DNA of 64,000 nucleotides, from positions 52,390,001-52,454,000 of the forward strand of contig NC_043014.1 of assembly GCF_006345805.1 (NCBI RefSeq). The letters run 5' to 3'. The stretch is from Octopus sinensis (lineage: Eukaryota). Position numbers: made by a program. Below are positions 16,268 through 17,183 of the stretch, piece by piece (position 1 is the stretch's first letter; every line of letters starts with the position of its first letter).

Positions 16268-17183
16268 ATTATATATATATATATACATATATATACTAGA
16301 GGGTAAACGTTTTTATTTCTCTTTCCATTTCAGAATTACAACTATCAGTGGTTTGGAGTTTGGCTGCTCTTTCTAGTGAGTCGGATGTCCTATTATGACC
16401 GTCCTTTATATGTTTGAATGTATATTACATAGTCTATTGACTATTTTTTCTTTCTCTCTTGAACGCTGGTAGCGGAGAATTTTCTAGAATTTTTTGCTAC
16501 CCTAATATTTATTAATTATATATATATATATATTATATATATATATAATATATATATATTATGTGAAATAGAAAGATGGATAATCTTGTTGCAGATCAAT
16601 CAAAAGTTTAACCGATACCTTGGTAGCAAAAATCACAACAGAAGACAGCACGGTTGGAGGTACAACCATATGGTGTTGCAACCGTGCGTTGGTGCGGATA
16701 ATTGAATTTTAATATTATTAGTGAATTGAAGAAATGGAGTTGAACGAAGATTGAACAGAAATCGTTTTATTTCATTCTACACGTGTTTCGAAAGGCACAA
16801 TTTACCAAATTCCGATTGAATAATGAGACTATATTGTGTCTTTCTCTTCAGGAAGAAATAGGAAATCCGTTGGAAAAAACAAAAACAGAACAGAGGCGGA
16901 GCAAAACAAATCGAACGAGGCTCCTAAGAGCCTATGGCCAAACTGTTTATCAATGTATGTTGATTTGTTCGATTTGTTTTGCTCCGCCTCTGTTCTGTTT
17001 TTGTTTTTTCCAACGGATTTCCTATTTCTTCCTGAAGAGAAAGACACAATATGGTCTCATTATTCAATCGGAATTTGGTAAATTGTGCCTTTCGAAACAC
17101 GTGTAGAATGAAATAAACGATTTCTGTTCAGTCTTCGTTCAACTCCATTTCTTCAATTCACTAATTATATATATATATATATC

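What the first reader, a model, noticed from the sequence alone, without database searches (positions are those of the whole stretch)
16717..17165. 450-bp palindrome carrying two intact, back-to-back hammerhead ribozymes
Seen: 200-bp arms with only 3 differences. Each arm encodes a full type I HHR (CUGAAGA core, long stem II, GAAAC, GUA cleavage site, 9-bp stem I with one bulge) on opposite strands. Stem III is the loop-less palindrome ACACGUGU. Known: PLE pseudo-LTRs carry HHRs with palindromic stem III that cleave as dimers, and PLE insertions often form inverted pLTR pairs. Inference: a young non-autonomous PLE or retrozyme-like element. A transcript from either strand would hold one ribozyme plus its upstream antisense, so it could either self-cleave or lock into ~200-bp dsRNA (an ADAR/Dicer substrate).
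Basis: partly seen in the sequence, partly recalled or inferred. Interest (0 to 1): 0.85.

Follow-up and report, generated by a model that had tools for sequence, protein, structure and literature searches.

The report
Inverted pair of hammerhead ribozyme repeats
A 450-base DNA palindrome carries one complete hammerhead self-cleaving RNA motif on each strand, which looks like a recent head-to-head insertion of a Penelope-type retroelement fragment, an arrangement already described in animal genomes.

Summary
Arms 16717-16916 and 16967-17165 differ at 3 positions, around a 50-nt unique centre. Each arm carries, pointing outward, a full type I hammerhead (HHR): CUGAAGA, G10.1-C11.1, an 11-bp helix II, GAAA, ACACGUGU, GUA, and a 9-bp helix I with one bulge.

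My descriptor finds only these two sites in 64 kb. None of 3770 shuffles reaches their quality. Rfam Hammerhead_1 is the top hit on each arm, but only at 14.8 bits against a cut-off of 34.

The layout matches published Penelope-like element (PLE) insertions: an HHR near the 3' end, an adjacent inverted 5'-truncated copy, and an AT-rich or microsatellite target. The right arm abuts a 70-bp (TA)n.

Not shown:
- any link to a PLE RT/GIY-YIG gene (0 Pfam hits in 288 ORFs)
- other copies of the element
- cleavage activity

It is not a retrozyme locus, because the copies are not in tandem. Predicted folding favours the HHR only in a 95-nt excerpt. In the whole palindrome a hairpin of about -357 kcal/mol takes over.

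Verdict: a real but ordinary new member of a known kind.

The parts
16717..16916 (-). Left arm of the palindrome. Read on the - strand it is one 5'-truncated copy of the repeat, with its 3' end pointing left.
   Evidence: 200 nt, 3 differences from the right arm
16917..16966 (.). Unique 50-nt centre, not palindromic, with a small GGCUC/GAGCC hairpin. It is either extra 5' sequence belonging to one copy or junction filler.
16967..17165 (+). Right arm. Read on the + strand it is the second copy, with its 3' end pointing right.
17023..17115 (+). Type I hammerhead motif. Helix I is 17023-17031/17106-17115, the core CUGAAGA is 17032-17038, helix II is 17039-17093, GAA is 17094-17096, helix III ACACGUGU is 17097-17104 and A17 is 17105. 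The predicted cut lies between 17105 and 17106.
   Evidence: Rfam RF00163 at 17026-17111, 14.8 bits, E=0.42
16768..16860 (-). Mirror type I hammerhead motif. C3 is at 16851 and the predicted cut lies between 16778 and 16777 on the - strand.
   Evidence: Rfam RF00163 at 16772-16857 on the - strand, 14.8 bits, E=0.43
17166..17235 (.). (TA)35 microsatellite directly abutting the right end. It is the likely AT-rich insertion target.
   Evidence: TRF, 35.5 copies, 94% matches; 58 merged (TA)n tracts cover 3.0% of the window

Best explanation
The locus is a recent head-to-head double insertion of the 3'-terminal 200-250 nt of a hammerhead-bearing retroelement. The source would be a Penelope-like element (PLE) or a non-autonomous derivative that a PLE mobilises. 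The target was AT-rich (TA)n DNA.

Each arm is one 5'-truncated copy with its 3' end facing outward. Its type I HHR lies about 60 nt from that end, where PLE HHRs normally sit. The inverted pair would arise in a single event in which both nicked target strands prime reverse transcription of the same RNA. This step is inferred.

The ribozyme belongs to the source element's RNA. There it would act as a dimer through the palindromic helix III, or with protein help. At this locus it is probably a passenger. A read-through transcript holds one sense ribozyme plus its antisense and is predicted to collapse into a roughly 200-bp hairpin. Only a transcript that starts inside or near the centre and runs outward would leave a ribozyme free.

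Shown: the palindrome, the motif, its statistical excess and the (TA)n junction. Inferred: the PLE origin, the twin-priming mechanism and any activity.
For: 1. Motif beyond chance. There are 2 of 2 descriptor hits in the window, and both are the arms. Of 3770 shuffles, 0 reach helix I of 9 bp or more, and none of the 38 relaxed shuffle hits combines G10.1-C11.1 with a palindromic helix III of 4 bp or more. In the first run, 0 of 300 shuffles reached helix I of 6 bp or more.
2. Rfam. Hammerhead_1 is the only one of 4227 families to hit 17012-17125 at E<=10, and it is the best of 2 hits on 16757-16871. It aligns over the full model on the correct strand. Two control stretches of similar length gave no hammerhead hit.
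3. Core features not demanded by the descriptor are present: the G10.1-C11.1 pair, the C15.2-G16.2 pair and the GUA triplet.
4. Architecture matches the literature. Metazoan type I HHRs have a 1-2 bp helix III capped by a small palindromic loop and are thought to work as dimers. PLE HHRs have an enlarged helix II. Dual HHRs 100-700 bp apart on opposite strands were seen in Schistosoma mansoni (PMC4209133, parts 1-2 read). [quoted passage not shown] A purified PLE protein cleaves and extends both target strands at AT-rich DNA (PMC11167929, Main text read).
5. The right end abuts a 70-bp (TA)n. Such tracts cover only 3.0% of the window.
6. The arms are 98.5% identical. The differences are 2 transitions and 1 homopolymer indel, which fits a single recent event.
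7. The isolated 95-nt RNA can adopt the HHR fold. The constrained fold is -14.0 against an MFE of -15.2 kcal/mol, and the dimer MFE of -44.5 uses the intermolecular ACACGUGU helix.
Against: 1. No RT, GIY-YIG or other Pfam family was found at E<=0.001 in 288 of 288 non-low-complexity ORFs of 55 aa or more. In the 16 long ORFs (cut-off E<=0.01) the only hit was a sub-threshold DUF6451 on the LINE fragment. The only retroelement protein in the window is that AP-endonuclease LINE fragment at 39249-39761.
2. There is no second copy of the arm sequence in the window, so there is no family, no covariation and no autonomous partner to point to.
3. Rfam scores the motif at 14.8 bits against a gathering score of 34. 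It was not listed in the 601-nt or whole-window scans.
4. The PLE min-HHR hallmark of an unpaired nucleotide between A9 and G10.1 is absent. Helix I (9 bp) is longer and helix II (11 bp plus a roughly 31-nt distal part) far longer than the published types. No canonical loop1-loop2 contact is evident.
5. The 111-nt folds are no more stable than shuffles (z = 0.28 and 0.58). The HHR pairs have mean probability 0.81 (helix I) and 0.35 (helix II) in the 95-nt excerpt. These fall to 0.009 and 0.37 in 166 nt, and to about 0 in the 224-nt arm and the whole palindrome.
6. No 30-40 bp PLE 'tail' asymmetry is seen, and only the right flank is a clean (TA)n.
7. The window contains other, unrelated palindromes without HHR motifs (32002-32285 and 42339-42823). 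Palindromes therefore arise here by other routes too.
Confidence: 0.55

Rival explanations
1. A solo hammerhead-bearing repeat (a retrozyme monomer, SINE-like element or pLTR fragment) was already at this site. It was later turned into a palindrome by a local inverted duplication, for example template switching or hairpin-mediated repair at the unstable (TA)n. No PLE twin priming was involved.
For: The HHR motif is real. The element abuts a long (TA)n, a structure prone to secondary-structure-driven rearrangement. The window holds other palindromes. The asymmetric 50-nt centre is what a fold-back duplication with a loop would leave. Solo 'monomer' retrozyme copies are common in animal genomes (bioRxiv 10.64898/2026.07.22.740005, passages).
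Against: Both arms end at exactly the same element position (16717 and 17165). That is expected if both are independent 3' ends of the same RNA. It is less expected from a random duplication breakpoint.
Confidence: 0.17
2. The element is a class II foldback or MITE-type DNA transposon with about 200-bp terminal inverted repeats that happens to have captured or evolved a hammerhead motif.
For: It has a near-perfect long inverted repeat with a short unique centre, small size and no coding capacity. A TA dinucleotide flanks GTGAATTG...CAATTCAC on both sides, as a Tc1/mariner-type duplication would. Other MITE-like palindromes are present in the window.
Against: The TA 'duplication' is trivial inside TA-rich DNA and is itself palindromic. 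An 8-bp hAT-type duplication and a 3-bp PIF-type duplication do not fit (by eye). No second copy exists in 64 kb. The listing of my search for 'hammerhead ribozyme' with 'miniature inverted-repeat' (7 papers, listing only) had no title about such an element. HHRs in animals are reported with PLEs, retrozymes, satellites and SINE-like repeats.
Confidence: 0.13
3. The hammerhead motif is a chance look-alike inside an otherwise unremarkable palindrome.
For: Rfam scores it at only 14.8 bits (E=0.42 for 114 nt, which would be far above 1 for the whole window). The folds are no more stable than shuffles. The fold is lost in longer context. My descriptor was designed post hoc. The first-stage scan looked at an unknown number of windows. 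A neighbouring repeat family shows that near-HHR strings with one core deviation do occur here.
Against: Of 3770 shuffled windows, 0 gave a hit of comparable quality. Relaxed hits occur at about 0.01 per window. Within those, G10.1-C11.1 (2 of 38), a palindromic helix III of 4 bp or more (2 of 38) and helix I of 9 bp or more (0 of 38) are each rare. Multiplying these by hand gives well under one chance hit per few-Gb genome.
Confidence: 0.07
4. The palindrome is an assembly or library artefact, such as a chimeric or fold-back read.
For: PLE-type tandem and inverted structures are said to cause assembly problems (PMC8557442, passage). One of the 3 arm differences is a homopolymer length difference.
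Against: The palindrome is only 449 bp and is embedded in different, non-palindromic flanks on both sides. The arms differ by two substitutions. It has an asymmetric 50-nt centre.
Confidence: 0.05

Closest known systems
Hammerhead motifs of Penelope-like elements (min-HHR and 'small palindromic helix III' variants; Cervera & de la Pena 2014, PMC4209133)
   Same: Type I topology. Enlarged helix II. G10.1-C11.1 pair. Palindromic 15.2-16.2 and helix III, implying dimeric action. The motif occurs as a dispersed copy away from any full PLE, and the paper notes pairs on opposite strands 100-700 bp apart. It lies near the 3' end of the repeat unit.
   Different: There is no unpaired nucleotide between A9 and G10.1. 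Helix I is 9 bp, against 4-5 bp. Helix II is 11 bp plus a roughly 31-nt distal part, against 6-8 bp. No RT/GIY-YIG ORF or pLTR context is seen in 64 kb. No family of copies is available for covariation analysis.
PLE insertion architecture (Craig et al. 2021, PMC8557442; Frangieh et al. 2024, PMC11167929)
   Same: Head-to-head inverted 5'-truncated copies. An AT-rich or (TA)n target. The HHR sits toward the 3' end. The in vitro ability of a PLE protein to nick and extend both strands offers a mechanism.
   Different: Both copies here are short (200-250 nt) with no full-length partner. No 30-40 bp tail is seen. The (TA)n bias was described for Naiads, which lack canonical HHRs.
Metazoan non-LTR retrozymes and HHR satellites (Cervera & de la Pena 2020, PMC7229834; newt satellite 2 and Schistosoma Sm-alpha, recalled)
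   Same: A small (150-450 bp), AT-rich, non-coding repeat with a type I HHR whose weak helix III favours dimers.
   Different: Retrozymes are head-to-tail tandem arrays, so that two sense HHRs excise a unit that circularises. Here the copies are inverted and each strand has one sense HHR, so no unit-length RNA can be released. The canonical 6-bp helix I, 4-bp helix II and loop-loop contacts are absent.
Rfam Hammerhead_1 (RF00163)
   Same: The full-length alignment (model positions 1-45) matches CUGA.GAG, CGAAAC and the loop-less consensus helix III.
   Different: The score is 14.8 bits against a 34-bit gathering score. There is a 51-nt insertion in loop II and a bulge in helix I.

Membership tests
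Hammerhead ribozyme, type I | Conserved core: C3 U4 G5 A6 N7 G8 A9, G12 A13 A14, A15.1-U16.1, H17 | tested here: met
   CUGAAGA at 17032-17038, GAA at 17094-17096, A15.1 at 17097, U16.1 at 17104 and A17 at 17105, with the mirror copy on the - strand.
Hammerhead ribozyme, type I | Three helices around the core, with helix I open-ended | tested here: met
   Helix I is 9 bp with 1 bulge. Helix II has 11 pairs in 12 positions. Helix III is ACAC/GUGU, readable as 2 bp plus an ACGU loop or as an 8-bp intermolecular duplex of -10.3 kcal/mol.
Hammerhead ribozyme, type I | Score at or above the Rfam RF00163 gathering threshold (34 bits) | tested here: not met
   14.8 bits on each arm. There were 0 gathering-level hits in the window. 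It was not listed in the 601-nt E<=10 scan.
Hammerhead ribozyme, type I | Loop 1-loop 2 tertiary contacts of canonical metazoan HHRs (6-bp helix I, 4-bp helix II) | tested here: not met
   Helix I carries a single U bulge after 3 bp. Helix II is long with a large distal part. The criterion is taken from PMC4209133.
Hammerhead ribozyme, type I | Site-specific self-cleavage | not testable with these tools
   This needs in vitro transcription or RNA-end mapping.
PLE hammerhead (Cervera & de la Pena 2014) | Located in the pLTR of an element with an RT + GIY-YIG ORF | tested here: inconclusive
   0 Pfam families at E<=0.001 in 288 of 288 ORFs. Among the 16 long ORFs (E<=0.01) the only hit was a sub-threshold DUF6451, which is neither RT nor GIY-YIG. 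The paper states that most motifs are solo copies away from full PLEs, and no eukaryotic genome could be searched.
PLE hammerhead (Cervera & de la Pena 2014) | [quoted passage not shown] | tested here: not met
   G10.1 (17039) directly follows A9 (17038) and pairs with C11.1 (17093).
PLE hammerhead (Cervera & de la Pena 2014) | G10.1-C11.1 pair and palindromic 15.2-16.2/loop 3 | tested here: met
   G17039-C17093, and ACACGUGU at 17097-17104.
PLE hammerhead (Cervera & de la Pena 2014) | Genome-wide consensus families with covariation | not testable with these tools
   Only two near-identical copies are available.
Non-LTR retrozyme | Head-to-tail tandem repeats, each unit with a sense type I HHR | tested here: not met
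   The copies are inverted. TRF finds no tandem array within 16717-17165. Each strand has one HHR.
Non-LTR retrozyme | Circular RNA product | not testable with these tools
   No transcriptome data were available.
PLE-type insertion | Adjacent inverted 5'-truncated copy, with an AT-rich or microsatellite target | tested here: met
   The arms are head-to-head with their 3' ends outward. (TA)35 abuts the right end.
PLE-type insertion | 30-40 bp 'tail' extension at one end | tested here: not met
   The arms end symmetrically at 16717 and 17165. The 154 nt between the left (TA)n (ending at 16562) and the left arm is unique sequence of unknown origin.
MITE / foldback DNA transposon | Terminal inverted repeats with a diagnostic target-site duplication, and multiple copies | tested here: inconclusive
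   Only a trivial TA/TA flank is seen. No other copy exists in the window.

The most novel reading that the evidence does not exclude
The palindrome may be more than an insertion scar. It could be a working bistable RNA locus. Outward transcripts starting near the centre would each end in a free ribozyme. Read-through transcripts would lock the ribozyme into a roughly 200-bp perfect duplex that feeds siRNA or RNA-editing pathways. Ribozyme cleavage and dsRNA formation would then be alternative, mutually exclusive fates. A related reading is that this is the first hammerhead carried by a class II foldback element.
Probability: 0.07. Interest if true: 0.7.

Novelty: new member of a known kind. 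Interest (0 to 1): 0.3.

Why it matters
It adds one more case to the large catalogue of hammerhead motifs scattered through animal genomes by Penelope-like elements and their derivatives. Its modest points of interest are the unusually long helix II and helix I, and a clean, young example of the head-to-head insertion structure. That structure could help test the idea that PLE proteins prime reverse transcription from both target strands. It does not open a new question.

Tried and rejected
- Rfam at gathering thresholds on the whole window gave 0 hits.
- Rfam at E<=10 on 16650-17250 gave 22 hits, none a hammerhead. The top ones are plant miRNA hairpin families well below their cut-offs (for example MIR8562, 125 bits against 211). 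I read these as generic long-hairpin matches, not miRNA genes.
- ARAGORN found 0 tRNA or tmRNA genes, so there is no tRNA-derived SINE signal.
- A scan of genome contigs (bacteria and archaea only) with a 24-nt stretch spanning the 3' half of the ribozyme gave 0 matches.
- A full-text search for the GAAAC-helix III string found 9 papers, of which 8 were listed, all apparently unrelated (listing only).
- A search for hammerheads in MITEs found 7 papers, none with a title about such an element (listing only).
- I tried to place the organism using the LINE ORF. It gave 269 hits, none with an informative source name (the few labelled ones say only 'hypothetical protein'), so the host stays unknown.
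- A repeat family next to the palindrome has a min-HHR-like string but carries U at core position 6. No copy passes the descriptor, and Rfam gives no hammerhead hit. I therefore do not count it as support.
- The supplementary PDF of PMC4209133 holds the HHR alignments for shrimp, mosquito, rotifer and other taxa. It could not be read. bioRxiv supplements are closed. Both might contain a closer relative.
The genome-wide copy search stayed undone.

Full report
**What is there.** The window is 64 kb with no N and 33.7% G+C. It is crowded with dinucleotide repeats: 58 merged (TA)n tracts of at least 8 units cover 3.0% of it. At the reported place, the repeat finder gives two inverted-repeat segments, 16766-16916/16967-17117 (151 nt, 99%) and 16712-16767/17115-17170 (56 nt, 96%), offset by a one-base indel. 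A global alignment of the left half against the reverse complement of the right half shows that arms 16717-16916 and 16967-17165 differ at exactly three places: T/C at 16751/17131, an extra T at 16765, and T/C at 16830/17053. The 50 nt at 16917-16966 do not pair.

**The hammerhead motif.** On the + strand (pairs verified):
- Helix I pairs 17023-17031 with 17106-17115 (3 bp, one bulged U, then 6 bp).
- The core CUGAAGA lies at 17032-17038.
- G10.1 (17039) pairs with C11.1 (17093) and opens a helix II of 11 pairs in 12 positions, with a roughly 31-nt distal part.
- GAA lies at 17094-17096.
- ACACGUGU lies at 17097-17104 (A15.1 to U16.1).
- A17 lies at 17105, so the scissile bond would be 17105/17106.

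The mirror motif on the - strand runs 16860-16768, with the bond at 16778/16777. All three arm differences fall outside the core and the helices. With only three differences that is not informative (about 0.4 by chance, my arithmetic).

**Is it more than chance?** I wrote a type I descriptor with these requirements:
- an exact CUGANGA core
- an optional bulge after A9
- helix II of at least 4 bp, with a span up to 90 nt
- GAAA
- a palindromic or hairpin helix III ending in U-H
- helix I of at least 4-6 bp, with at most one bulge

It finds exactly two sites in the window on both strands, and they are the two arms. Allowing one core mismatch adds nothing.

In 300 dinucleotide-preserving shuffles, 0 had a hit with helix I of 6 bp or more, and 2 had a hit with helix I of 4 bp or more. 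In 3770 further shuffles there were 38 relaxed hits. Of these, 19 had helix I of 6 bp or more and 0 had 9 bp or more. Only 2 of 38 had G10.1-C11.1, and only 2 of 38 had a palindromic helix III of 4 bp or more. None combined these features.

Multiplying these rates by hand puts a chance hit of this quality well below one per few-Gb genome. Two caveats apply. The descriptor was written after I had seen the candidate. The two arms are one independent event.

**Rfam is much cooler.**
- There are no gathering-level hits in the window.
- No hammerhead appears among the 22 hits at E<=10 on 16650-17250. That list is headed by plant miRNA hairpin families far below their cut-offs, which is what any long hairpin would give.
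- When only 114-115 nt are searched, Hammerhead_1 (RF00163) is the sole hit on the right arm and the better of two hits on the left arm. It is on the correct strand and aligned over all 45 model positions, but scores only 14.8 bits against a 34-bit cut-off (E about 0.4). The score is depressed by a 51-nt insertion in loop II and the helix I bulge.
- Two control stretches of similar size gave no hammerhead hit.

**Folding.**
- The 111-nt excerpts are no more stable than shuffles (z = 0.28 and 0.58).
- For the 95-nt excerpt the MFE is -15.2 kcal/mol and the best fold that keeps helices I and II is -14.0.
- Two molecules together reach -44.5 and use the intermolecular ACACGUGU helix. That 8-bp duplex alone is worth -10.3.
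- The mean pair probability is 0.81 (helix I) and 0.35 (helix II) in the 95-nt excerpt. It is 0.009 and 0.37 in 17000-17165. It is about 0 in the 224-nt half (16942-17165), the 249-nt arm plus centre (16917-17165) and the whole palindrome, which folds as a single hairpin of -356.8 to -359.6 kcal/mol.

The motif is therefore complete, but nothing here shows that it folds or cleaves in its genomic context.

**Surroundings.**
- No Pfam family was found at E<=0.001 in 288 of 288 stop-to-stop ORFs of 55 aa or more that passed a low-complexity filter.
- Among 16 long ORFs scanned at E<=0.01, the only hit was a weak DUF6451 match.
- That ORF (39249-39761, - strand) is the C-terminal part of an AP-endonuclease LINE reverse transcriptase. 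It has 269 relatives, the best at 86% identity, carrying PF00078, PF03372 and PF14529.
- The window therefore holds no Penelope RT or GIY-YIG.
- The arm sequence has no other copy in the window.
- The right end abuts a 70-bp (TA)35.
- On the left, 154 nt of unique sequence separate the arm from another (TA)n at 16517-16562.
- There are no tRNA genes.
- The window also contains unrelated palindromes without HHR motifs, at 32002-32285 and 42339-42823.

**Comparison with what is known.**

Cervera and de la Pena 2014 (PMC4209133, parts 1-2 of 4 read) report several relevant points:
- Canonical metazoan type I HHRs have a 1-2 bp helix III capped by a small palindromic loop, and act as dimers.
- PLE HHRs have an enlarged helix II, a short helix I, an unpaired base after A9, a conserved G10.1-C11.1 and a palindromic 15.2-16.2.
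- Most motifs are solo copies away from full PLEs.
- In Schistosoma mansoni, dual HHRs occur 100-700 bp apart on opposite strands.
- In vitro activity is low.

Craig et al. 2021 (PMC8557442, passages) describe HHRs in pLTRs near the 3' ends. They also describe a frequently adjacent inverted 5'-truncated copy, a 30-40 bp tail, and microsatellite targets including (TA)n.

Frangieh et al. 2024 (PMC11167929, Main text read) show three things about a purified PLE protein. It cleaves and extends both strands of AT-rich targets. Its HHR needs the protein to cut. Cleavage is not needed for insertion in vitro.

Cervera and de la Pena 2020 (PMC7229834, passages) and Li et al. 2026 (bioRxiv 10.64898/2026.07.22.740005, part 1 and passages) define animal retrozymes as tandem arrays of 150-450 bp units with type I HHRs, and derive them from PLE pLTRs.

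Against this background the locus matches the PLE-type picture in several respects:
- topology
- helix III
- G10.1-C11.1
- the long helix II trend
- 3'-proximal position
- head-to-head copies
- the AT-rich target

It departs from that picture in other respects:
- no bulge after A9
- a 9-bp helix I
- a very long helix II
- no tail
- no RT nearby

It fails the retrozyme definition at this locus because the copies are inverted.

**Best reading (confidence 0.55).** This is a single recent PLE-type insertion in which both target strands primed cDNA from the 3' end of a hammerhead-bearing RNA, leaving two outward-facing 5'-truncated copies. The ribozymes are passengers here.

**Rivals.**
- Later local inverted duplication of a solo HHR repeat (0.17).
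- A foldback or MITE DNA element carrying an HHR (0.13).
- A chance motif (0.07).
- An assembly artefact (0.05).

**What stayed unchecked.** I could not check genomic copies, covariation, a PLE partner, transcripts, cleavage or the host organism.

**Verdict.** However, the phenomenon, including opposite-strand HHR pairs and inverted PLE copies, is already in print. I rate it a new member of a known kind, with interest 0.3.

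Noticed in passing
17257-17406 (+), 12684-12817 (+), 51286-51490 (+), 27188-27402 (-), 27463-27673 (-), 38801-38980 (-): A repeat family of roughly 200-270 bp has at least 6 copies in the window, and their 3' ends run into (TA)n. Its consensus holds a PLE-min-HHR-like string: CUGU[C/A]GA, one unpaired A, a 4-bp helix II with G10.1-C11.1, GAAAC-GU-A, and a 4-bp helix I. It carries U instead of A at core position 6 in 5 of the 5 copies that cover it. No copy passes my descriptor, and Rfam gives no hammerhead hit. 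One copy lies just beyond the (TA)n that abuts the palindrome. It may be a decayed or variant hammerhead family, or a coincidence.
   Followed up: partly
27188-27756 (-): Two copies of that family form a head-to-tail dimer with a period of about 271 bp at 99.3% identity. Each unit is bounded by (TA)n. This is a retrozyme-like or partial-tandem layout.
   Followed up: partly
32002-32285; 42339-42823; 24238-24624 with 25244-25623: There are three further inverted-repeat structures: two palindromes that are 83.6% and 80.5% self-complementary, and an inverted pair at 91.8%. They are unrelated in sequence to the finding and carry no hammerhead motif. They look MITE- or foldback-like.
   Followed up: partly
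39249-39761 (-): A 171-aa open frame encodes the C-terminal part of an AP-endonuclease-type LINE reverse transcriptase. It has 269 database relatives, the best at 86% identity, and the full-length relatives are about 1045 aa with PF03372, PF14529 and PF00078.
   Followed up: yes
43075-43628, with dispersed copies at 25881-26036, 34110-34333, 35443-35785, 36982-37125 and 40941-41037: A 184-bp unit is repeated three times in tandem (91-94% identity) and is also scattered through the window. It contains no hammerhead core.
   Followed up: no
17728-18813 and 11510-12144: These are kilobase-scale compound microsatellites, (CA)n/(TA)n with a 16-nt CACACACACATATATA period and long (TA)n runs. The window as a whole is unusually rich in dinucleotide repeats.
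   Followed up: no
16563-16716: This is 154 nt of unique sequence between a (TA)n and the left arm. It contains a GCACGGTTG...CAACCGTGC hairpin. Its origin is unknown and it has no other copy in the window.
   Followed up: no
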